A stretch of 64,000 nt of DNA from Acidimicrobiia bacterium (GTDB taxonomy: Bacteria > Actinomycetota > Acidimicrobiia > Spongiisociales > Spongiisociaceae): assembly GCA_965200835.1 (NCBI GenBank), contig OZ241390.1:450518-514517 (forward strand). Direction: 5' to 3'. The notes beneath the pieces were generated by a model, which saw nothing but the letters and a program-made list of their open reading frames with translations, had not been told where the DNA came from and searched no databases. The position numbers and the translations under genes are program-made. Shown here in pieces: positions 11,099 to 63,834 of this stretch (positions within the stretch are counted from its first letter, which is position 1; every line of letters starts with the position of its first letter).

Positions 11099-11302
11099 AT
11101 GTACGGTCCCCTCAACGGTGTCAGGGTGGCACTCGTGACCTTGGCGGTGATCGCCGCTCTCGTCGCGGCCGTGTTGGGCTACTGGATGGTAAGCCTGATA
11201 CTCGTGATCGGGGTGGCGTTGCACGGGTTCGGCTGGCTCTACCTGGCACAGCAGGCCGATCAAAAGCCGGAGCAAGACCCAACGCCCAGCGAACCGCGCT
11301 GA
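11099..11302 (+). CDS. hypothetical small membrane protein (two predicted TM helices)
   Basis: 67-aa ORF in an otherwise gene-free 430-nt gap. Hydrophobic segments are the only support. Confidence 0.25.
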   Translation: MYGPLNGVRVALVTLAVIAALVAAVLGYWMVSLILVIGVALHGFGWLYLAQQADQKPEQDPTPSEPR

Positions 11303-11364
11303 GATTCGGGTTATCAGATACCCCTTAACGCTGGTCGGTAGCTGGTACCGTTAGTGCGACCTGG

Positions 11365-12264
11365 TCAGTAGTGCCAGGGAAATCGAGAGAAGTCCTTCGG
11401 TCTCTTTTCGACGAAGGCGTCCCGCCCCTCCCCTGCCTCATCGGTCATGTAACCGAGGCGGGTGGCCTCCCCAGCGAAGATCTGCTGGCCCACCAGACCG
11501 TCGTCGATCAGGTTGAAGGCATACTTGAGCATCCGCTGGGACATGGGGCTCTTGGCATTGATCGTGCGCGCCCACTCCAGAGCGGTCTTCTCCAGCTCCT
11601 CATGGGCCACTACCCGGTTCACCATTCCCATCCGGAAAGCTTCCTCCGCCGAGTAGTCCTGTCCGAGGAAGAAGATCTCTCGAGCCCGCTTCTGGCCCAC
11701 CATCCGGGTCAGGTAGGCCGAACCGAATCCGGCATCGAAGGAGGCGACGTCGGCATCGGTCTGCTTGAAAACCGCGTGCTCTCGCGAGGCCAGGGTGAGA
11801 TCGCACACCACATGGAGACTATGGCCGCCACCCACCGCCCAGCCGGGCACCACCGCGATAACCACTTTGGCCATGAACCGGATCAGCCGCTGCACCTCGA
11901 GGATGTGGAGCCGCCCCAGGCGGGCCGGATCGATGACCTCAGCGCTCTCTCCCTCGGCGTACATGTAGCCGGCCTTGCCCCTGATGCGCTGATCCCCACC
12001 TGAGGAGAACGCCCAGCCGTCGTCCTTCGGAGATGGGCCATTGCCGGTGAGCAGCACCGTACCCACATCGCTCCATTGGCGGGCGTGATCCAGGGCCAAG
12101 TACAGCTCGTCCACGGTACGGGGCCGGAAGGCGTTGCGAATCTCCGGCCGATCGAACGCCACCCGGACCGTACCCTGGTCGACCGCCCGGTGATAGGTGA
12201 CATCGGTGAAGTCGAAGCCTTCGACCTCCCGCCAGGCGGACGGATCGAAAATCTCTGAGACCAT
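11365..12264 (-). CDS. menB: 1,4-dihydroxy-2-naphthoyl-CoA synthase
   Basis: Crotonase fold with the MenB-specific SGGDQ..RG and GYMYAEG / WAVGGGH segments. Start set at MVSEIFD (ATG 12262-12264). Confidence 0.8.
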   Translation of the reverse strand: MVSEIFDPSAWREVEGFDFTDVTYHRAVDQGTVRVAFDRPEIRNAFRPRTVDELYLALDHARQWSDVGTVLLTGNGPSPKDDGWAFSSGGDQRIRGKAGYMYAEGESAEVIDPARLGRLHILEVQRLIRFMAKVVIAVVPGWAVGGGHSLHVVCDLTLASREHAVFKQTDADVASFDAGFGSAYLTRMVGQKRAREIFFLGQDYSAEEAFRMGMVNRVVAHEELEKTALEWARTINAKSPMSQRMLKYAFNLIDDGLVGQQIFAGEATRLGYMTDEAGEGRDAFVEKRPKDFSRFPWHY

Positions 12265-12289
12265 CAGGACGGGCCCCCCTCGGTAGTCC

Positions 12290-13261
12290 TCACGTGCGGG
12301 GGGTGAGTTCGGGCACGCACACCCCGCAGGCGATGGTGGACCCATGATTCCGCCGGGCGGCTAGCTCGTCATCATGGTGCTGGTACTGGGGCGTGTCGTG
12401 GCGAGCAGTGCGGTGGTCAACTGGACGGCGGGCCTCCTCCTTCCACTCCTCATCCCACCGGTAGCCCAGGTCCACGATAGAACCAGGTTCATCGAGGCTC
12501 TCGAACAGCGCCAGAGCATCCGACATGATGGCCTTCTGCAGTCCGGGACGGTCAGGTGGCCCGCAAGTGTGCCCCAGCGGGAAGTCGGTGAAGGCGGCCC
12601 GGGGCGGGTTGGCCGAGGCGGTTATGGACCCGGCACTAGTCATCGACACGGTAGGTATGCCCTTCGCCTCGATCGCTCTGCTGATCAGTCCAACTGACTG
12701 ATGGCAGACCGGTCAGACAGGCACCAGGAGCACCGCGTCCAATCGCAGATCCAGGGCGCGGTCCACCAGGGCAGGGATCAGTTCACTAGCCAGACGGCGC
12801 TGTGAGTAGATGCCTCCCATAAAGGTGAGGGCGACGGGCGCCAGCTCGCCGATCACCCCGTCGGCGGCCAGAGCCCGCAAGGCTTCGATCGGAAACACCA
12901 CGTTGGGATCACGGCGGGGATTCGCCAGGTCGAAGGCGAAGTGGGTCACCCGCAGCTCCGAGGTGGGTACTCCGGTGGGTATCTCGCGATGGGTAACGTC
13001 GTCGCGGTGAGTGAACGCCACCTGCCCGTGACGGTAGATGCCACCCGAGGCGATCAACCCGAGACGGGCTTCGGAGAGCGGCTTGCGTAGAGTGGCCCAG
13101 GCAGGCTGATCCTCATTCTGGGCCCAGCGGTAAGGCGAGTACCCGAGGCGTCCGTAGGCCTCTTTCGTGACGGCGATGTAATCGACAGGGGTGGGATCGG
13201 GTTCCATGGCATCTATTCTAGGAGACTGCGGGCAGCCGGTATCGATCTCCCCATGGGTCAC
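12290..13261 (-). CDS. putative selenoprotein of the glycine/sarcosine/betaine/D-proline reductase B-subunit family (GrdB/PrdB-like); in-frame TGA at 12713-12715 (plus-strand coordinates) read as selenocysteine
   Basis: ORFs 12713..13261 and 12290..12649 are in the same frame, separated only by a TGA and 21 stop-free codons. Read-through gives ...LLVPV-U-PVCHQSVGLISRAIEAKGIPTVSMTSAG...FPLGH.... The U-x-x-C motif and following segment match what I recall of the Sec region of PrdB/GrdB. A hairpin starts 11 nt after the UGA. Confidence 0.55.
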
Positions 13262-13267
13262 GCCTGG

Positions 13268-13708
13268 TCAGCTGTTCGGCGGCCAGTCAGGATCCAGTTG
13301 CCGCAGGAAATCGGCGCAGCGCTCCTCCTCGTGATGCTCGCCTATCTGTCCAGCCATACGCTGTAGTCCGGCCAGGCACCGCAGGAAGCCGCGGTTCGGC
13401 TCGTCCGCCCACCGGACCAGCTGACTCCCCCGCCACCCATTCTGCCGGAGAGCATCCAGCCCCCGGTGGTAGCCGATCCGGAAGCTCGCATAGGCTTGTA
13501 CAACAGCAAGGGTCGAACCGGCAGACCGCTCCTGCCATTCCCCCAGTGCCGCCCACCCATCCATAGAATCAGGATTATCGGCCACGATCGTCGCTAGCTC
13601 CTCAAGCGTCTCAGCCTGGTCTAGGTCAGCGATCAGCCCTGGATCGGGTATAGGAAGCACCACCCGGGGCCTCCCTCCCATACTCAGGTGTACCTGCTCG
13701 CCCGCCAT
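13268..13708 (-). CDS. conserved hypothetical protein (resembles actinobacterial DUF3151-type proteins)
   Basis: 146-aa ORF ending 6 nt before the selenoprotein candidate start, so probably co-transcribed. Family assignment is from memory only. Confidence 0.45.
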   Translation of the reverse strand: MAGEQVHLSMGGRPRVVLPIPDPGLIADLDQAETLEELATIVADNPDSMDGWAALGEWQERSAGSTLAVVQAYASFRIGYHRGLDALRQNGWRGSQLVRWADEPNRGFLRCLAGLQRMAGQIGEHHEEERCADFLRQLDPDWPPNS

Positions 13709-13752
13709 CAGCTCAGCTTAGGTGTAGCTGGTGGGACTACCGCGTCGGTCAG

Positions 13753-14691
13753 TCAATGACGGGGCTTGCCGCTCTCTAGGTGGTAGCCGCCCAGACGGCG
13801 CTCGACCTCTGCAATCGCGGCCCGGACGTGCGAAGCTTCCCACCCCGGCGCTTGCAATTGATCGACCGCATATGAAGCGACCTCGCAGGCAACTTCTGCC
13901 ATCGTCCGGACCTCTCCGGAGGTAGGAGGCTCCATCGGTGAGTCTGGCGTATAACGGGAGTCTTGATGCCAGCGCGTCAGTTCTTCAAACCCCACCCGTG
14001 CCAGTCGAGCACTGATCTCGCCACGATAGGGCTCTACCAGCTGGGCACACAGTTCAGCGATGTCGTGTCCTCGAATGGCTCGTTCACACCCTGCCACATG
14101 CACTAGGGACTTGATGGCAGATTCGACGGTACGTTGGATCTGGCCGCAGGCCCCCTCGAATCTCACAACAAGCAAGTAGAGGGCCTCCTCGTAGTCGCCG
14201 GACCTCCGTGCCTTCAACTCCCGATCATTGGGCCTCAAGAACATCTCTAGCGCTATCAATGCACCACTAACCTCGCGCAAGCGCCTCATGGTGGCTTCGT
14301 GGCTATTGGTTGGCAAGACCATCTCCTTATCCCAGTCGACCTCACCGATACCGTGATCAACGAGCAAGACCCCGTATCCTGCGATCCAACTTTCCAGCGA
14401 AGTAACGATGTTCTCGGTGCGAACCTTCCACTCAGGCCGGTCGGTGACCAAGACATCGACCGGATAACCGACTTCTGCTGTCGCTAACCTGGCAAGCTCC
14501 TGCTCGCGGGTGAACCGCGCTGTGTAATCCAGGTCGTCATAGATCGCCACCAGATCTATGTCACTACTCTCGGTTGCCTCGCCACGAGCCGTAGAACCGA
14601 ACAGCCACACCGCGCTCACTCCCGCCAACGTGAACAACTCCGCCACCCGCTCGGCATCAGCCCGGGATGGAGCCCTTGTAACTAAAGACAT
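13753..14691 (-). CDS. nucleotidyltransferase (minimal NTase, MNT) - HEPN domain fusion protein
   Basis: N-terminal Pol-beta-type NTase motif LFGSTARGEATESSDIDLVAIYDD. C-terminal helical domain with an R-x4-H HEPN-like motif (ERAIRGHD). GC (~52-58%) is lower than the flanks. Confidence 0.65.
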   Translation of the reverse strand: MSLVTRAPSRADAERVAELFTLAGVSAVWLFGSTARGEATESSDIDLVAIYDDLDYTARFTREQELARLATAEVGYPVDVLVTDRPEWKVRTENIVTSLESWIAGYGVLLVDHGIGEVDWDKEMVLPTNSHEATMRRLREVSGALIALEMFLRPNDRELKARRSGDYEEALYLLVVRFEGACGQIQRTVESAIKSLVHVAGCERAIRGHDIAELCAQLVEPYRGEISARLARVGFEELTRWHQDSRYTPDSPMEPPTSGEVRTMAEVACEVASYAVDQLQAPGWEASHVRAAIAEVERRLGGYHLESGKPRH

Positions 14692-14781
14692 GATCCAGAG
14701 CGCTGTCCTTCCTGGCGGACTGTCACACTCGGCACCGCAAGACTAACTCCCCCTACGTCCTTTGCGGCGGCCGCACCGTGG

Positions 14782-15186
14782 TCAGTGTGGTGGTTCGAGG
14801 AAACTAACCACATCTCGTCGGAGGACGATCTCGTTCGGCACAGACCGGCGGTGGGCGTCCCGGGCCGCCATCGTCTCCTCCATTAGCTTGAGCCTCCGAC
14901 GTAGGTGGCTGACCTCCGAACGGAGCGCCCGGTTCTCTGCCTGGAGCTGCATGATCCGCTTGACACCCTCGATGTTGATGCCCTGGCTGGTCAGGTCCTG
15001 GATCAGCGAGAGGCGTTCGAGATCCGCGTTGGAGTAGCGGCGGGTTCCGCCCGGCGTACGGAAGGGCTCGATGAGACCCCGCCGCTCGTAGATCCGCAGC
15101 GTCTGGGGGTGCATTCCTGCCAGGCTGGCCGCCACCGAGATGACGTAGACCGCCTCCAACTTATCCGGGATCTGTTTCTTGGCCAT
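14782..15186 (-). CDS. hspR: MerR-family heat-shock repressor HspR
   Basis: MerR-type HTH (VYVISVAASLAGMHPQTLRIYERRGL) plus coiled-coil C-terminus. It is the last gene of the dnaK-grpE-dnaJ-hspR operon. Start at MAKKQ (ATG 15184-15186). Confidence 0.85.
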   Translation of the reverse strand: MAKKQIPDKLEAVYVISVAASLAGMHPQTLRIYERRGLIEPFRTPGGTRRYSNADLERLSLIQDLTSQGINIEGVKRIMQLQAENRALRSEVSHLRRRLKLMEETMAARDAHRRSVPNEIVLRRDVVSFLEPPH

Positions 15187-38809: not shown

Positions 38810-40735
38810 TCACTGCTTCTGGATGTCCTCGAAGCCGAGCTCCATAGGGGTGTCCCGGCCGAAGATCTCCACCAGCACGGTGACCTTCTGCTGATCCACA
38901 TTGATGTCCTCGACCACTCCGTTGAAGTCCGCGAAAGGTCCCGAAGCCACCCGGACAGTCTCGCCTATCTCCCAGGCCGGCTTGAAGCGGGGAGCCTTCT
39001 TGGCGGCTTCCTTCCTGAGACCCAGGAAGCGCTCGACCTCTCGCCTGGACAGGGGGGTGGGCCGGACACCACTCCCCATACCGACGAAGGCAGTTACCCC
39101 GGGAGTGTCACGCACGGCCCGCCACGAGTCGTCGTCGAGATACATGCGGATAAGGAGATAACCGGGGAACATCCGCTTATCCACTTCTTTCTTACGCCCC
39201 TGACGTATCTCGACCACCTTCTCGGTCGGGATGACCACCTCGAAGACACGATCCTGCATGTGCAGCGACTCGGTGCGCTTGGAGAGGTTGGCCTTGACCT
39301 TCTTCTCGTGACCCGAATAGGCATGGATCACATACCACGAACCCGGCTTCTCGTAGGGGCTGACCGGTTCCTCTTCCTCGATAAGCACATCTGCTGGGTC
39401 GGGAACGGGCGCCTCGGTACGGCGGGAAGCCGCCTGCCTGGCCGGCTCGGCGGCACGAGAGACGGCAGGCTCAGGTTCGGCCGCTGCCGGGGCAGCGGAT
39501 GCTGGCTCGGGCCGGACTTCCGGCAGCGATCCATCCGCCCCGAATCCCGCCGAGAGCAGGGCTGCCCCCAACGAACCGAAAGAATCCCCCTCACCCGCTG
39601 GAGCTCCCGAAGCGATACCTGACTCCCGGCCAGCCGGCCCATCCTGTTCCGGCGGAGCGGATGTCGTGCCCTCCTCGAATGCGGAGTCCCCGACCTCTGC
39701 CCCAGTTTCGGTATCGGCACCTGGGGACCCGAAGACCTCCTCGGACACCGACTCGGTAACCGGCGGCTCAGCAACAGCTCCATCACCATCCCGCATCAGC
39801 TTGTAGAGCTCCCGGAGCAAGGAGTCCCGATGCTCCCTGACCCGCTTCTTCTGTACAATGGCACCGAATGCCCCCAGAATCCGCTCGATGGTGTCGAGGG
39901 TGCGCTGAGCGTCATAGAAGGAAATGGTGCGGTAGGAATGGAGAAAGGTGGAGTAGGCCTCCTCTACCCAGCCTCTTACGTGACGTCCGTGCTTCAGTGA
40001 CCAGACGTCATCCCACGTCGCAATGACACCTCCCAGCAGGAACGCGATGCCGTCGGTCGGGATCGAGTCGGAAGGATTGTCCACCCGCTGGTTGACCGTG
40101 TCGCGCCAGCTCTTGCCATATTGTTTGGACCATCTCCTCCGGCATCGAAGGGCCAGACCCTGCTTCAGCTCCTCCCAGCAAGCCTCGATGACTTCCGGAT
40201 CGCGGATCGAAGCCTCCCCACCCACGGATGCCGACGTGGTCGCGATAGCGGGTTTGGTGACTGCTCCCGGTGAGCCGTTCCCGCGGGTGGCTTCCTTCCC
40301 GATCAGCTTCTTGAAGCGCTGCCGCCTCAGGGCCTCCCGGTGACGTTCCACCTTCTGCAGCGCAGCAACGGCGTCGAGGGAGCGGAGCAGCCGCTCGATC
40401 GTTTCGGTAGCTCTGTCGGCGTCATCGAGACTGAAGTTCTCGAATCTGGCAACCCGGCCCCGGAACTGATCGATCTCCCACACCCAGCGCAACTCGTCAG
40501 TACCGAGCCCGGGCACCGCGCTCCATATCTCATCCCAGGTGGCGATCATGCCCTTGAGCAGGAAGGCCGGGTCGTCGGTCGATGGTTCGGAGAAGGGTCG
40601 CTCGAGCTGGCCGTTGACGGTAACTCGCCATTGCGGACCGTAGCGGTCGGACCAATGACGCCTCCCGATGGGCACGATGGCTTCCCGCAAGACAGCCAGG
40701 CCGTCGTCCACCCGAGCGCGGTTGGCTATCGCCAT
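38810..40735 (-). CDS. nusG: transcription termination/antitermination factor NusG with a ~466-aa N-terminal extension (two ~135-aa tandem repeats of an unrecognised domain plus an acidic Pro/Ala-rich linker)
   Basis: The C-terminal 175 aa (38813-39337) are a canonical NusG NGN + KOW (WYVIHAYSGHEKKV...KAPRFKPAWEIGETVRV...). The ORF continues stop-free upstream to 64 nt below the secE stop. Upstream aa 10-140 and 180-312 are clear paralogous repeats. Confidence 0.8.
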   Translation of the reverse strand: MAIANRARVDDGLAVLREAIVPIGRRHWSDRYGPQWRVTVNGQLERPFSEPSTDDPAFLLKGMIATWDEIWSAVPGLGTDELRWVWEIDQFRGRVARFENFSLDDADRATETIERLLRSLDAVAALQKVERHREALRRQRFKKLIGKEATRGNGSPGAVTKPAIATTSASVGGEASIRDPEVIEACWEELKQGLALRCRRRWSKQYGKSWRDTVNQRVDNPSDSIPTDGIAFLLGGVIATWDDVWSLKHGRHVRGWVEEAYSTFLHSYRTISFYDAQRTLDTIERILGAFGAIVQKKRVREHRDSLLRELYKLMRDGDGAVAEPPVTESVSEEVFGSPGADTETGAEVGDSAFEEGTTSAPPEQDGPAGRESGIASGAPAGEGDSFGSLGAALLSAGFGADGSLPEVRPEPASAAPAAAEPEPAVSRAAEPARQAASRRTEAPVPDPADVLIEEEEPVSPYEKPGSWYVIHAYSGHEKKVKANLSKRTESLHMQDRVFEVVIPTEKVVEIRQGRKKEVDKRMFPGYLLIRMYLDDDSWRAVRDTPGVTAFVGMGSGVRPTPLSRREVERFLGLRKEAAKKAPRFKPAWEIGETVRVASGPFADFNGVVEDINVDQQKVTVLVEIFGRDTPMELGFEDIQKQ

Positions 40736-43409: not shown

Positions 43410-44597
<1,188 letters not shown>

Positions 44598-61114: not shown

Positions 61115-62182
61115 ATGTCAGAGATAAGGGTGGCGATCGTCGGGGTTGGTAACTGCGCCTCCTCCCTGATCCAGGGAGTCGAGTTCTACCGGGACGCTCC
61201 TGCCGACCAGATGATTCCCGGTCTCATGCATCCGGTGCTGGGTAACTACCACATAGGTGACATCCGGTTCGTAGCGGCCTTTGACGTGGATGCCACCAAG
61301 GTGGGCCAGGATCTATCCAAGGCCATCAGCGCGGGTGAGAACAACACCATCCCTTTTACCGAGGTTCCCCAGCTGGATGTGACGGTGCAGCGGGGCCCCA
61401 CCCTCGACGGGATAGGCGCATATCTATCCGGCGTGATCGAGGAATCGGCGGCCCCGGAGGTCGACGTAGCTGCGGTGTTGCGGCAGACCAAGGCGGATGT
61501 GGTGGTCTCCTACCTCCCGGTCGGTTCGCAAGAGGCGACCGAATTCTATGTGGAACAAGCCCTGGCGGCGGGATGCGCCTTCGTCAACTGCATACCCGTG
61601 TTCATCGCTCGGACCGAGGAGTGGGCTGATCGGTTCCGGGCGGCGGGCGTACCCATCGTCGGTGATGACATCAAATCCCAGGTCGGAGCCACGATCCTCC
61701 ACCGCACCCTGGTGAACCTGTTCCAGGACCGCGGCGTGAAGGTCGACCGGACCTACCAGCTCAACTTCGGGGGCAACACCGATTTCCTGAACATGCTGGA
61801 GCGAAGCCGCCTAGTGTCGAAGAAGGAGTCCAAGACCAAGGCGGTAACCAGCCAGCTGGAAACCCGCATACAGGTAGACGACGTCCATGTCGGTCCCTCC
61901 GATCACGTCCCGTGGCTAACCGACCGCAAGTGGGCACACATTCGCCTGGAAGGCACCGGATTCGGAGAAACCCCACTCAATGCCGAAGTGAAGCTGGAGG
62001 TGTGGGACAGTCCCAACTCGGCGGGGGTAGTCATCGACGCCCTCCGCTGCGCCAAGCTGGGACTAGATCGAGGCTTATCCGGCCCGCTCTACGAAGCCAG
62101 CGCCTACTTCATGAAGTCACCACCCAGGCAGATGCGTGACGAAGTCGCCCGCGAAGAGGTGGAAAAGTTCATCGCGGGATGA
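61115..62182 (+). CDS. ino1: inositol-3-phosphate synthase (myo-inositol-1-phosphate synthase, actinobacterial/archaeal type)
   Basis: N-terminal NAD-binding [13 protein letters not shown] plus conserved core. 355 aa. Confidence 0.85.
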
Positions 62183-62457
62183 CTAGCTCGTCATCGTAGT
62201 GTCGAGGACAGAGCACCTATGTGTGCGTGACGGGAGTCCTAACATTAGGGAAGGGTGACGAGTCTCACCGAACATCTGGCTTCGGCATATCGATCGACCC
62301 CGATTGATGGACCGAGCAACCTACGAAGAGCCGGAATGCCTCCCGTGGGGTATCGAATGGGTCATCGTCGGCGGGTCGATCGCAGTAGATCCGGCCGGTC
62401 CCACCGGACACCTAGGTGGTGGGGTTGCGCGCCGGTGCTCCTTTGGCTCGTGATGCT

Positions 62458-63834
62458 ATGGTGGCTCGCTTAGTGCGTAACTTCGACCTGATGATCATCG
62501 GCACAGGATCCGGCAACTCGGTGATCGGACCCGAACATGACGGCTGGGACATTGCCATCGTCGAGCGGGATCGCTTCGGTGGGACTTGCCTCAACGTGGG
62601 CTGCATCCCCTCCAAGATGTTCGTGTACGCAGCGGAAATGGCCGAGTTGGCCTCGGACAGTGATCGGCTGGGTGTCCGAACCAGTTTCAACGGCGCCGAC
62701 TGGCCGGCCATCCGCGACCGCATCTTCGGTCGGATCGATCCCATCGCCGAGGGCGGCCGCCTCTACCGGGAGGGACTTCCCAACGTCACTGTCTATACCG
62801 GCACCGGCCGCTTCGTCGGACCCAGAACCGTGGCGGTGGGTGACGAGGTTATTTCGGCTGACCGGGTCGTGATAGCGGCAGGCGGGCGGCCCACGGTGCC
62901 TCCGGTTCCGGGCTTGGCCGATTGCGGTTACCACACATCGGACACGATCATGCGTCTCGACGATCTGCCCGATCGGCTAGCGGTAATCGGCGCCGGATAC
63001 ATCGCGGCTGAGCTGGGTGGGGTCATGGGAGCTCTCGGCTCGACGGTAACTTTCTTGTTGCGAGGTGACACCTTCCTGCGGCGGGAAGATCACGACATCA
63101 GCAGCCGCTTCACCGCGGCCTACACCCGGCGTTTCGACGTGCGGATGCATACCCAACCGATAGATGTCCGTAGAGATGGTTCCGAGGTGGTCCTCCGCAT
63201 GTTCGATCGGGAAGGCACCCGACAGGAGTTGAGGGCCGACGAGGTACTGGTGGCCACCGGTCGGAAGCCCAATACCGATTGGCTAGACGTAGCCGCAGCT
63301 GGGATCGCGGTAAGCGATCGGGGATTCGTGATCACCGACGAGCAGCTCCGCACCAACGTCGAAGGGGTGTGGGCGCTGGGCGACATCACCAACCCGATCC
63401 AGCTGAAGCATGTTGCCAACCATGAGGCCCGGGTCGTCCGGCATAACCTGACCAATCCCGATAACCCAGCAACCGTCGATCATCGCTTCATCCCCCACGC
63501 AGTCTTCGGTTACCCCCAGATTGCCAGTGTGGGACTCACGGAGCGGGAGTGCAAGAGGGACGGGATCCCCTACGTCAGCCACACCCAGCCCTATGCGGCC
63601 GCCGCCTATGGATGGGCCATGGAGGACACCGAAAGCGCGGCCAAGGTGATAGCGCACGCCGAGACCCGCCGTCTCCTAGGGGCCCACATCATCGGCCCGC
63701 AAGCACCCACCCTGATCCAGCAGCTCATCCAAGGTATGCACTTCGATCTGACAGTCGACCAGATGGCCCGTGGTCAGTACTACATCCATCCTGCCCTACC
63801 CGAAGTAGTAGAACAGGCCCTCTTGGAACTCTGA
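62458..63834 (+). CDS. mtr: mycothione reductase (pyridine nucleotide-disulfide oxidoreductase class I)
   Basis: GTGSGNS FAD motif and redox-active GGTCLNVGCIPSKM. Very close, block by block, to the M. tuberculosis Mtr sequence as recalled (VANHEARVV..HNL, AYGWAMEDT, LLGAHI.G, MARGQYWIHPALPEVVE.ALL.L). Start set at ATG 62458. Confidence 0.8.
   Translation: MVARLVRNFDLMIIGTGSGNSVIGPEHDGWDIAIVERDRFGGTCLNVGCIPSKMFVYAAEMAELASDSDRLGVRTSFNGADWPAIRDRIFGRIDPIAEGGRLYREGLPNVTVYTGTGRFVGPRTVAVGDEVISADRVVIAAGGRPTVPPVPGLADCGYHTSDTIMRLDDLPDRLAVIGAGYIAAELGGVMGALGSTVTFLLRGDTFLRREDHDISSRFTAAYTRRFDVRMHTQPIDVRRDGSEVVLRMFDREGTRQELRADEVLVATGRKPNTDWLDVAAAGIAVSDRGFVITDEQLRTNVEGVWALGDITNPIQLKHVANHEARVVRHNLTNPDNPATVDHRFIPHAVFGYPQIASVGLTERECKRDGIPYVSHTQPYAAAAYGWAMEDTESAAKVIAHAETRRLLGAHIIGPQAPTLIQQLIQGMHFDLTVDQMARGQYYIHPALPEVVEQALLEL

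What the first reader, a model, noticed from the sequence alone, without database searches (positions are those of the whole stretch)
12290..13261. Stand-alone GrdB/PrdB-family selenoprotein candidate with in-frame UGA and a U-x-x-C motif
Two minus-strand ORFs (12713..13261 and 12290..12649) share one reading frame. They are separated only by TGA (12713-12715, plus-strand coordinates) and 21 stop-free codons. Reading UGA as Sec gives ...RLDAVLLVPV-U-PVCHQSVGLISRAIEAKGIPTVSMTSAGSITASANPPRAAFTDFPLGH.... This matches the layout I recall around the Sec of D-proline reductase PrdB and glycine reductase GrdB (...hydrophobic-U-x-x-C... then ..IE.xGIP.V.., then ..PLG..). A hairpin (ATCAGTC-agttg-GACTGAT, plus-strand coordinates 12684-12702 on the minus strand) begins 11 nt after the UGA, which is the usual position for a bacterial SECIS. 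None of the usual partners (grdA/grdC/grdE, prdA) are in the window. Neighbours are a DUF3151-like gene (6-nt spacing, probably co-transcribed) and menB. Stand-alone PrdB/GrdB-like selenoproteins in actinobacteria have no assigned substrate, so this may be an orphan reductase.
Basis: partly seen in the sequence, partly recalled or inferred. Interest (0 to 1): 0.75.

Follow-up and report, generated by a model that had tools for sequence, protein, structure and literature searches.

The report
Orphan PrdB-like selenoprotein gene, confirmed
This is very probably a real selenocysteine-encoding gene of a widespread PrdB-like family that was already reported as a selenoprotein; it lacks the partners of proline or glycine reductase, and its substrate is unknown.

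Summary
On the minus strand one reading frame runs from ATG 13207 to the stop at 12290-12292, interrupted only by TGA 12713-12715.

Four results support reading that TGA as selenocysteine:
- All 80 best relatives from GTDB species genomes, across many phyla, carry TGA at this codon, followed by conserved PVCHQSVGL.
- Full-length homologues have Cys there (a few have Thr).
- The annotated Sec codon of a genuine prdB aligns on the same position (U-x-x-C-H).
- The sequence after the TGA evolves under the same purifying selection as the sequence before it.

A conserved hairpin (12684-12702) starts 11 nt after the UGA. It shows U-A/C-G covariation, keeps G-U in its loop, and is absent from the Cys/Thr homologues examined.

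The protein is not D-proline reductase PrdB or GrdB. It scores below their curated cut-offs, has extra N- and C-terminal segments, and has no prdA, grdE or grdA neighbour in the window or beside about 75 related loci. Here it appears co-transcribed with menB.

Relatives sit next to, or are fused with, CoA-activating enzymes, which hints at an acyl-CoA substrate.

"PrdB" selenoproteins with a UxxC motif were already reported as abundant in marine metagenomes, so this is a new member of a known kind. The selA/B/C/D genes could not be checked.

The parts
12290..13207 (-). Coding sequence of the PrdB-like selenoprotein: 305 residues including Sec165, plus the terminal TGA stop at 12290-12292.
   Evidence: Translation. 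NCBIfam PrdB model TIGR04483, E = 5.6e-44, over model positions 17-235 of 238; Pfam GRDB 26.4 bits against a cut-off of 22. The start at ATG 13207 follows from the conserved Met in homologues and from the 164-aa product on record.
12713..12715 (-). In-frame UGA, read as selenocysteine (residue 165).
   Evidence: TGA at the homologous codon in 80 of 80 related genome loci and in 3 Logan assemblies. Cys in full-length homologues. Aligns with the Sec codon of an annotated prdB.
12704..12715 (-). U-P-V-C motif (Sec165, Cys168), followed by invariant His169 and Gln170.
   Evidence: Invariant columns in alignment A3. In the AlphaFold model of Cys homologue P0001 the motif lies between strand 167-171 and helix 175-190.
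12670..12715 (-). Extended SECIS-like stem-loop that starts at the UGA.
   Evidence: RNA fold of -21.5 kcal/mol, z = -3.9 against 200 shuffles.
12684..12702 (-). Conserved upper hairpin of the SECIS (AUCAGUC-aguug-GACUGAU). It starts at the 11th nt after the UGA and has a conserved G-U in the loop.
   Evidence: RNAalifold consensus on 81 sequences. 92.9% of cells paired; U-A changes to C-G at pair 15:31 (42 against 24 sequences) and G-C to A-U at pair 18:28. Absent from the Cys/Thr homologues examined.
11365..12264 (-). menB (1,4-dihydroxy-2-naphthoyl-CoA synthase). It starts 25 nt after the selenoprotein stop, behind a GAGGGGGG Shine-Dalgarno-like run, and is probably in the same operon.
   Evidence: NCBIfam equivalog NF006186, 578 bits against a cut-off of 378. 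Sequence. An ECH_1 gene lies directly downstream in 13 of 73 related loci, mainly the closest Acidimicrobiia clade.
13268..13708 (-). Upstream DUF3151 gene. Same strand, 60 nt before the probable start. Not a conserved partner.
   Evidence: Pfam PF11349. DUF3151 is upstream in only 3 of 76 related loci.
11266..11283 (-). Terminator-like hairpin with a T-run after menB. It is the only such site on this stretch.
   Evidence: Consensus scan of 11200-14900 found one site, against 1.6 expected by chance, so the evidence is weak.

Best explanation
A functional selenoprotein gene lies at 12290-13207 on the minus strand. UGA 12713-12715 is most likely recoded to selenocysteine by the bacterial SelB route. 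In that route SelB-GTP-Sec-tRNA(Sec) binds the stem-loop that starts at the UGA, whose conserved upper hairpin begins 11 nt downstream, and delivers Sec to the ribosome. The product is a 305-residue protein with Sec165-Pro-Val-Cys168-His-Gln at the junction of a beta-strand and a helix in a Rossmann-like alpha/beta domain.

The protein belongs to the GrdB/PrdB superfamily, with Sec at the same position as in genuine PrdB. It represents a separate, widespread 'orphan' subfamily with extra N- and C-terminal segments and no pyruvoyl partner (PrdA or GrdE).

Inferred mechanism: the selenolate attacks the substrate, and Cys168 then resolves the adduct into a selenenylsulfide. That bond would be re-reduced by a cellular thiol system, as proposed for PrdB. 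The substrate is not D-proline or glycine bound to a pyruvoyl subunit. Gene context in relatives points to a carboxylic acid activated as a CoA thioester. In this genome the gene is probably co-transcribed with menB.

Shown here: the gene structure, the homology, the Sec/Cys pattern, the conserved SECIS and the selection on the downstream part. Inferred: actual Sec insertion, the redox cycle and the substrate class.
For: UGA and its context:
- TGA is conserved in 80 of 80 related loci from Acidimicrobiia, Chloroflexi, Deltaproteobacteria, Binatia, Gammaproteobacteria and other groups, always followed by PVCHQSVGL or PVCHQSIGL.
- Public gene calls for close homologues stop at ...LLVPV, while homologues of 290-315 aa carry Cys at that column.
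- dN/dS of the 140 codons after the UGA is 0.14-0.31, the same range as before it (0.09-0.34).
- TGA is the ordinary stop in this window (31 of 46 genes), so the code is not reassigned.

SECIS:
- The hairpin is conserved with covariation and is thermodynamically unusual.
- It is missing from the Cys/Thr homologues examined.

Family relationship:
- The Sec codon of Terrisporobacter prdB, in a prdC-prdA-prdB operon, aligns with the window UGA.

Lineage:
- Another order of Acidimicrobiia is reported to carry selA, selB, selC and selD (bioRxiv 10.64898/2026.04.03.716425).

Orphan status:
- No Gly_reductase/PrdA, GRDA or PrdC family appears among the families listed for the immediate neighbours of 76 upstream and 73 downstream genes, or anywhere in the window.

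CoA theme in relatives:
- A CoA_transf_3 gene overlaps the start of 3 of 3 Cys forms.
- An AMP-binding gene lies 8 nt downstream of another Cys form.
- Succ_CoA_lig and 4HBT genes lie beside two Thr forms.
- An ADP-forming acyl-CoA synthetase lies downstream in 3 Sec loci, and ECH/MenB in 13.
- Two AMP-binding::PrdB-like fusion proteins exist.
Against: - No selA, selB, selD or tRNA-Sec lies in the 64-kb window or in the flanks of the 80 related loci. The rest of the genome could not be read, so Sec decoding in this organism is inferred, not shown.
- Most Sec-form loci have unrelated neighbours, such as a methyltransferase, PEP carboxylase or the transhydrogenase subunit PntB.
- The clearest CoA links come from Cys/Thr subfamilies that are only 36-51% identical to the window protein.
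- The 13 ECH neighbours are mostly one clade, so they are not independent events.
- The Thr variants show that the first position of the motif is not always essential.
- No solved structure or biochemical study of this subfamily was found.
Confidence: 0.9

Rival explanations
1. The TGA is a true stop. The locus would then encode a 164-residue N-terminal protein and a separately initiated 119-residue C-terminal protein starting at GTG 12649 (a split gene).
For: Automatic gene callers produce exactly these fragments. A GTG lies 22 codons after the TGA.
Against: The 21 codons between the TGA and the GTG (PVCHQSVGLISRAIEAKGIPT) are the most conserved part of the family and include the invariant Cys168-His-Gln. 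All Cys/Thr homologues are single chains. A conserved, covarying hairpin sits at the SECIS position. There is no conserved restart codon.
Confidence: 0.03
2. The gene is a pseudogene inactivated by a nonsense mutation, or the TGA is an assembly or sequencing error for TGC/TGT.
For: A single base separates TGA from TGC/TGT, and Cys homologues exist.
Against: The same TGA is in three independent Logan assemblies of this organism and in 80 of 80 related species. The downstream 140 codons are under purifying selection, with no frameshift or further stop.
Confidence: 0.02
3. It is the selenoprotein subunit of a classical D-proline reductase (or glycine/betaine reductase) whose PrdA/GrdE, GrdA and PrdC/GrdC partners are encoded elsewhere in the genome.
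For: The best family match is PrdB (TIGR04483, 150 bits), and Sec lies at the homologous U-x-x-C-H site. Earlier surveys label such sequences 'proline reductase PrdB' (PMC1088965, PMC2398784). The rest of the genome was not available.
Against: The score is half the equivalog cut-off of 300. The GrdB/F/H models score 36-47 bits against cut-offs of 602-800. The protein has about 25 extra N-terminal and 55 extra C-terminal residues that genuine PrdB lacks. In genuine operons prdA is adjacent, yet no such partner appears among the listed neighbour families in about 75 loci on either side or in this window. The host looks like a mycothiol- and menaquinone-using actinobacterium rather than a Stickland fermenter.
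Confidence: 0.05

Closest known systems
PrdB, the selenoprotein subunit of D-proline reductase (NCBIfam TIGR04483), e.g. Terrisporobacter mayombei pTM1 prdB
   Same: Homologous over about 215 residues (32-33% identity). Sec lies at the same alignment column in a U-x-x-C-H motif, followed by ...RAIE..GIPTV. A UGA plus a downstream hairpin are used for Sec insertion.
   Different: The score is below the equivalog cut-off (150 against 300). There is no adjacent prdA, prdC, prdD or prdE. The window protein has an extra N-terminal segment (VDYI..Y..LGY.PYRWA) and a C-terminal extension of about 55 residues (W..WK..R..P.YQ..D). The glycine-rich MGGGGNQQK of PrdB is replaced by MGGIYSQRR.
GrdB/GrdF/GrdH, the substrate-specific selenoprotein B of glycine, sarcosine and betaine reductases (Pfam PF07355; TIGR01917/01918)
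   Same: Same Pfam family, above the gathering score (26.4 against 22). The UxxC selenocysteine motif is listed for GrdB in reviews (PMC13188914, PMC9312934).
   Different: Only the C-terminal third of the 431-435-residue models is matched (about model positions 225-387 across the five models). Scores are 36-47 bits against cut-offs of 602-800. There are no grdA, grdE or grdC neighbours. The third Cys of the UxxCxxC motif reported for GrdB is absent here (UPVCHQS).
'Proline reductase PrdB' selenoprotein family of the Sargasso Sea and GOS marine metagenomes (Zhang, Gladyshev and co-workers 2005, 2008)
   Same: A UxxC motif and a pfam07355 assignment, many Sec forms plus Cys homologues, and occurrence in aerobic marine and other non-fermenting bacteria (PMC1088965: 42 genes; PMC2398784: 235 Sec and 110 Cys sequences). 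The window family likewise includes marine and sponge-associated lineages.
   Different: That these are the same subfamily is my inference, because the metagenomic sequences were not compared directly. The papers treat the family as D-proline reductase and, in the passages read, do not discuss the missing PrdA partner or the extra terminal segments.
Escherichia coli fdhF-type bacterial SECIS (from general knowledge of the system)
   Same: A stem-loop directly after the UGA inside the coding sequence. The upper hairpin starts about 11 nt downstream and has G and U in the apical loop.
   Different: The sequence is unrelated and specific to this family. No Rfam model matched it. Binding to SelB was not tested.

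Membership tests
Bacterial SelB/SECIS-dependent selenoprotein gene | In-frame UGA with conserved protein-coding sequence on both sides | tested here: met
   80 of 80 loci; dN/dS 0.14-0.31 downstream, similar upstream.
Bacterial SelB/SECIS-dependent selenoprotein gene | Cys-containing homologues that align Cys with the UGA | tested here: met
   Cys is found in most full-length homologues and Thr in three.
Bacterial SelB/SECIS-dependent selenoprotein gene | Stem-loop immediately downstream of the UGA, conserved among Sec forms and absent from Cys forms | tested here: met
   92.9% of cells paired, two covarying pairs; z = -3.9; absent from the Cys/Thr homologues examined.
Bacterial SelB/SECIS-dependent selenoprotein gene | selA, selB, selC (tRNA-Sec) and selD present in the same genome | not testable with these tools
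   None is in the 64-kb window. The 2.8-Mb source contig could not be retrieved.
Bacterial SelB/SECIS-dependent selenoprotein gene | Physical incorporation of selenium into the protein | not testable with these tools
   Needs 75Se labelling or mass spectrometry.
GrdB/PrdB superfamily (Pfam PF07355 GRDB) | Profile score above the Pfam gathering threshold | tested here: met
   26.4 bits against 22.
GrdB/PrdB superfamily (Pfam PF07355 GRDB) | Sec or Cys in a U/C-x-x-C motif at the position of the PrdB selenocysteine | tested here: met
   Alignment with annotated Terrisporobacter PrdB: LLTAG-U-GTCHRS against LLVPV-U-PVCHQS.
D-proline reductase PrdB (TIGR04483 equivalog) | Score at or above the curated equivalog cut-off (300 bits) | tested here: not met
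   150.4 bits.
D-proline reductase PrdB (TIGR04483 equivalog) | Encoded with prdA (pyruvoyl proprotein) and prdC/prdD/prdE | tested here: not met
   A genuine operon is shown. No such genes are in the window or among the listed families of the immediate neighbours of 76 and 73 related loci. A distant location in the genome is not excluded.
D-proline reductase PrdB (TIGR04483 equivalog) | Protein of about 240 residues without terminal extensions | tested here: not met
   305 residues, with extra N- and C-terminal conserved segments.
Glycine/sarcosine/betaine reductase selenoprotein B (TIGR01917, TIGR01918, NF040794, NF040795) | Score at or above the curated cut-offs, and the full architecture of about 430 residues | tested here: not met
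   35.8-47.1 bits against 602-800, and 39.7 against 65.45 for the subfamily model. Only about model positions 225-387 are matched.
Glycine/sarcosine/betaine reductase selenoprotein B (TIGR01917, TIGR01918, NF040794, NF040795) | Neighbouring grdA, grdE and grdC/D genes | tested here: not met

The most novel reading that the evidence does not exclude
The orphan PrdB-like family may be a pyruvoyl-independent Sec/Cys reductase that acts on carboxylic acids activated as CoA thioesters (or acyl-adenylates). It appears to be the same family that earlier surveys counted among the most abundant marine selenoproteins under the name 'proline reductase'. In this reading the thioester carbonyl, rather than a pyruvoyl-iminium, would activate the alpha-carbon for selenolate attack and reductive cleavage. 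In this Acidimicrobiia lineage the enzyme would be tied to menB and naphthoyl-CoA chemistry. That would be a new enzyme activity and would give the family a testable function.
Probability: 0.2. Interest if true: 0.65.

Novelty: new member of a known kind. Interest (0 to 1): 0.35.

Why it matters
The gene shows how automatic annotation splits selenoprotein genes. Public records hold only the 164-residue N-terminal fragment, so the genome annotation should be corrected to a 305-residue Sec protein.

The family is widespread. Earlier surveys filed such sequences under D-proline reductase, an assignment that the missing PrdA partner, the extra terminal segments and the host lineages make unlikely.

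The recurrent adjacency or fusion to four unrelated kinds of CoA-activating enzyme gives a concrete hypothesis to test for an abundant environmental selenoprotein of unknown function.

For this window itself the finding is a sound annotation, not a discovery of a new kind of system.

Tried and rejected
- **Rfam.** Searches at gathering and at permissive thresholds found no SECIS model for the region. This was expected, because bacterial SECIS elements are family-specific.
- **Solved structures.** A sequence search of the PDB found no solved relative.
- **Structure of the window protein itself.** The Cys homologue P0001 was modelled instead.
- **Sec machinery.** tblastn with E. coli SelA, SelB and SelD against the window and all fetched loci hit only EF-Tu. 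tRNA scans found no tRNA-Sec.
- **Source contig.** Two attempts to retrieve the 2.8-Mb contig or its accession returned only short Logan contigs.
- **Other selenoprotein genes in the window.** A scan for other TGA-interrupted frames gave only antisense or adjacent-gene artefacts typical of high-GC DNA.
- **DUF3151 as a partner.** Rejected, because it is upstream in only 3 of 76 loci.
- **UGA reassignment.** Rejected, because TGA ends 31 of 46 genes in the window.
- **Lower SECIS stem.** I looked for one with a single conserved register. The lower stems form in different registers in different clades, so only the upper hairpin is claimed as conserved.
Full report
**1. The observation**

- ORF 12713..13261 ends in TGA at 12713-12715.
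- Twenty-one stop-free codons follow, and the frame stays open to TGA 12290-12292.
- The read-through peptide contains ...LDAVLLVPV-U-PVCHQSVGLISRAIEAKGIPTV...FPLGH.
- The hairpin AUCAGUC/GACUGAU is at 12684-12702, and its first base is the 11th nucleotide after the UGA.

The more likely start is ATG 13207 rather than GTG 13261. That Met is conserved in the closest homologues, and the 164-residue product from it is the sequence on record in public collections. The protein therefore has 305 residues with Sec at position 165, and the gap to the upstream DUF3151 gene is 60 nt.

**2. Is the UGA a selenocysteine codon?**

Homology:
- With Cys substituted for Sec, the protein matches NCBIfam PrdB (TIGR04483) at E = 5.6e-44 over model positions 17-235 of 238.
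- It also passes the Pfam GRDB gathering score.

Sec/Cys pattern among homologues:
- A search of 5.8 billion proteins returned two classes. One class has 290-315 residues and covers the whole query. The other has 167-197 residues and covers only the first 51-54%.
- In the alignment every short protein ends at ...LLVPV, which is exactly the residue before the UGA.
- The long proteins carry Cys at that column. Three carry Thr, and one carries Trp, probably a UGA read as Trp by a gene caller.

Conservation of the TGA:
- A scan of one genome per GTDB species returned 567 confirmed relatives.
- All 80 best loci carry TGA at this codon, followed by PVCHQS(V/I)GL. They come from Acidimicrobiia, Chloroflexi, Deltaproteobacteria, Binatia, Gammaproteobacteria, Methylomirabilota, Myxococcota, Acidobacteria and Verrucomicrobiales.
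- The closest are sponge-associated Candidatus Spongiisociaceae, at 73-77% identity.
- Three independent Logan assemblies of the same organism also carry the TGA, so it is not a sequencing error.

Selection and genetic code:
- Pairwise dN/dS between the window and 15 relatives is 0.14-0.31 for the 140 codons after the UGA and 0.09-0.34 for the part before it. The downstream part is therefore translated in this frame.
- TGA ends 31 of 46 genes in the window, including this gene itself, so UGA is not globally reassigned.

Comparison with a genuine prdB:
- A tblastn search of plasmid records found annotated prdB genes.
- In Terrisporobacter mayombei pTM1 the gene lies in a prdC-prdA-x-prdB cluster.
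- Its annotated in-frame TGA aligns on the window UGA: LLTAG-U-GTCHRSAVLVQRAIEEAGIPTV against LLVPV-U-PVCHQSVGLISRAIEAKGIPTV.

**3. The SECIS element**

- An ungapped alignment of the 60 nt from the TGA in 81 sequences gives a consensus hairpin at columns 14-20/26-32. In many sequences it extends by a C-G pair.
- Counted on 76 distinct sequences, 92.9% of cells pair, against 3.6-49.7% when the partner is slid by 1-3 columns.
- Pair 15:31 switches between U-A (42 sequences) and C-G (24). This couples a synonymous His codon change (CAU/CAC) to an Ile/Val change (AUC/GUC).
- Pair 18:28 has two G-C to A-U changes.
- The apical loop keeps G-U in nearly all sequences; three loci have A-U.
- In the window the 46 nt from the UGA fold into one extended stem-loop of -21.5 kcal/mol, z = -3.9.
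- Lower stems form in other clades too, but in different registers, so I claim only the upper hairpin as conserved.
- Nine Cys/Thr homologues from other loci lack this hairpin, and most have folding z-scores near zero.
- Their peptide after CHQ also varies (TTGIL, ATAIV, TMSML), whereas Sec forms keep S(V/I)GL in all 80 loci. This is what an RNA constraint laid over the coding sequence would produce.
- No Rfam family matches, which is usual for bacterial SECIS elements.

**4. What could not be shown**

No selA, selB, selD or tRNA-Sec is present in the window or in the flanks of the 80 loci. The only SelB-like hit is EF-Tu at 43413-44597.

A preprint reports selA, selB, selC and selD in all 84 complete genomes of Actinomarinales, another order of Acidimicrobiia. 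Sec decoding is therefore plausible in the class. For this genome it remains an inference from the conservation pattern.

**5. What the protein is, and is not**

It belongs to the GrdB/PrdB superfamily and has Sec at the PrdB position. It fails the tests for the two characterised enzymes.
- Scores: 150 bits against the PrdB equivalog cut-off of 300; 36-47 bits against 602-800 for GrdB, GrdF and GrdH; 39.7 against 65.45 for the 'various selenoprotein B' subfamily model.
- Architecture: compared with genuine PrdB (242 codons) it has a conserved N-terminal segment (VDYI..Y..LGY.PYRWA) and a C-terminal extension of about 55 residues (W..WK...R...P.YQ..D). It reads MGGIYSQRR where PrdB has MGGGGNQQK.
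- Partners: none is present. The precomputed Pfam table for -9 to +4 kb around the gene and my Pfam scan of the remaining ORFs of the window show ordinary chromosomal genes. These include ppk, dxs, ABC transporters, an SPFH/NfeD pair, the dnaK operon, dnaX, recR, rpoBC, ribosomal protein genes, nusG, secE, tuf, short-chain dehydrogenase genes, myo-inositol-1-phosphate synthase and mycothione reductase.
- Neighbours in relatives: among the immediate neighbours in 76 and 73 related loci, the commonest families are lineage-specific and unrelated. They are an MTS methyltransferase (15), PntB (7), luciferase-like monooxygenase (6), ECH (13) and PEP carboxylase (4). No PrdA/GrdE, GrdA or PrdC family is among the 25 most frequent families listed on either side. 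DUF3151 is upstream in only 3 loci.

**6. Context and a functional lead**

In the window menB follows 25 nt after the stop, behind a GAGGGGGG run. It is a true equivalog (578 bits against 378). No terminator-like site lies between the genes; the only one follows menB. The same order is kept in the closest Acidimicrobiia clade and in L020.

In relatives, different and non-homologous CoA-activating or CoA-ester enzymes recur next to the gene:
- a family III CoA-transferase overlaps the start codon in three separate Cys clades;
- an AMP-forming ligase gene lies 8 nt downstream of a fourth Cys form;
- an ADP-forming ligase domain protein and a 4HBT thioesterase lie beside two Thr forms;
- an ADP-forming acyl-CoA synthetase lies downstream in three Sec loci;
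- two proteins fuse an AMP-binding domain to a Cys-type PrdB-like domain.

This supports, but does not prove, a substrate activated as a CoA thioester. Two weaknesses apply. Most Sec loci show no such neighbour. The clearest cases are paralogous subfamilies only 36-51% identical to the window protein.

**7. Comparison with the literature**

- 'Proline reductase PrdB' with a UxxC motif was the third most abundant selenoprotein family in the Sargasso Sea data, with 42 genes (PMC1088965).
- It was among the most abundant in GOS, with 235 Sec and 110 Cys sequences assigned to pfam07355 (PMC2398784).
- 'Proline reductase' selenoproteins are also listed for Anaeromyxobacter and Geobacter (PMC1794560).
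- Recent reviews still list only D-proline reductase under this name.
- NCBI already names Cys and Sec members 'glycine/sarcosine/betaine reductase selenoprotein B family protein'.

The selenoprotein nature of the family is therefore known. What remains open is its function without PrdA. My full-text searches found no paper that treats these orphans separately.

**8. Verdict**

It is a new member of a known family, so the interest is modest. The useful outputs are:
- a corrected gene model;
- a defined family-specific SECIS;
- the demonstration that the family is not PrdB or GrdB in the strict sense;
- a testable CoA-linked hypothesis.

Noticed in passing
window 38810-40735 (-): An uninterrupted 641-residue ORF combines three parts. 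The first is two tandem Swt1-like HEPN repeats; only the first (about residues 13-120) is a Pfam match, the second (about residues 190-300) was seen by eye as a repeated motif. The second part is an acidic, Ala/Pro-rich linker. The third is a complete NusG (residues 466-640, TIGR00922, 197 bits). This is either an unusual HEPN-NusG fusion or an upstream gene in the same frame with no stop between them.
   Followed up: partly
window 13822-13908 (-): ARAGORN calls an 87-nt tRNA-Met inside the NTP_transf_2/MntA-like ORF 13753-14691. Rfam does not report it at the gathering threshold, although it confirms the other four tRNAs. It is probably a false positive.
   Followed up: partly
P0002, P0016, P0024; L092:5577-5624: Three full-length homologues have Thr instead of Sec or Cys at the first position of the U-x-x-C motif and keep the invariant second Cys. 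In L092 the Sec-type peptide HQSVGLI is retained, but the 3' arm of the hairpin has decayed. This suggests descent from a Sec form.
   Followed up: partly
L096:4040-5879: A metagenomic contig carries two PrdB-like paralogues in tandem. One is a Sec-type copy, called as fragments of 175 and 69 residues. The other is a full-length Cys-type copy directly downstream. An AhpD-like CMD gene lies just upstream.
   Followed up: no
P0144 (805 aa), P0138 (514 aa): These proteins fuse an AMP-binding (acyl-CoA synthetase-like) domain to a Cys-type PrdB-like domain. I used them as a lead to the substrate class.
   Followed up: partly
L098:5968-8353 (Roseomonas haemaphysalidis plasmid p546-2): A Cys-type family member lies tail-to-tail (5 nt apart) with a gene annotated as protein adenylyltransferase SelO.
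   Followed up: no
window 61115-63831 (+): Myo-inositol-1-phosphate synthase and a mycothione reductase (NF005884, 627 bits against a cut-off of 501) lie side by side. This suggests a mycothiol-using actinobacterium, which fits the Acidimicrobiia affinity of the closest relatives.
   Followed up: partly
P0046: One database homologue has Trp at the Sec column (FFPVWPVCHQ). A gene caller probably read the UGA as Trp under an alternative genetic code.
   Followed up: no
window 13753-14691 (-): A 312-residue nucleotidyltransferase (NTP_transf_2/Polbeta) lies between hspR and DUF3151. It has a weak, sub-threshold MntA-antitoxin match, so it may be a toxin-antitoxin-like or defence-type gene inside a housekeeping region.
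   Followed up: no
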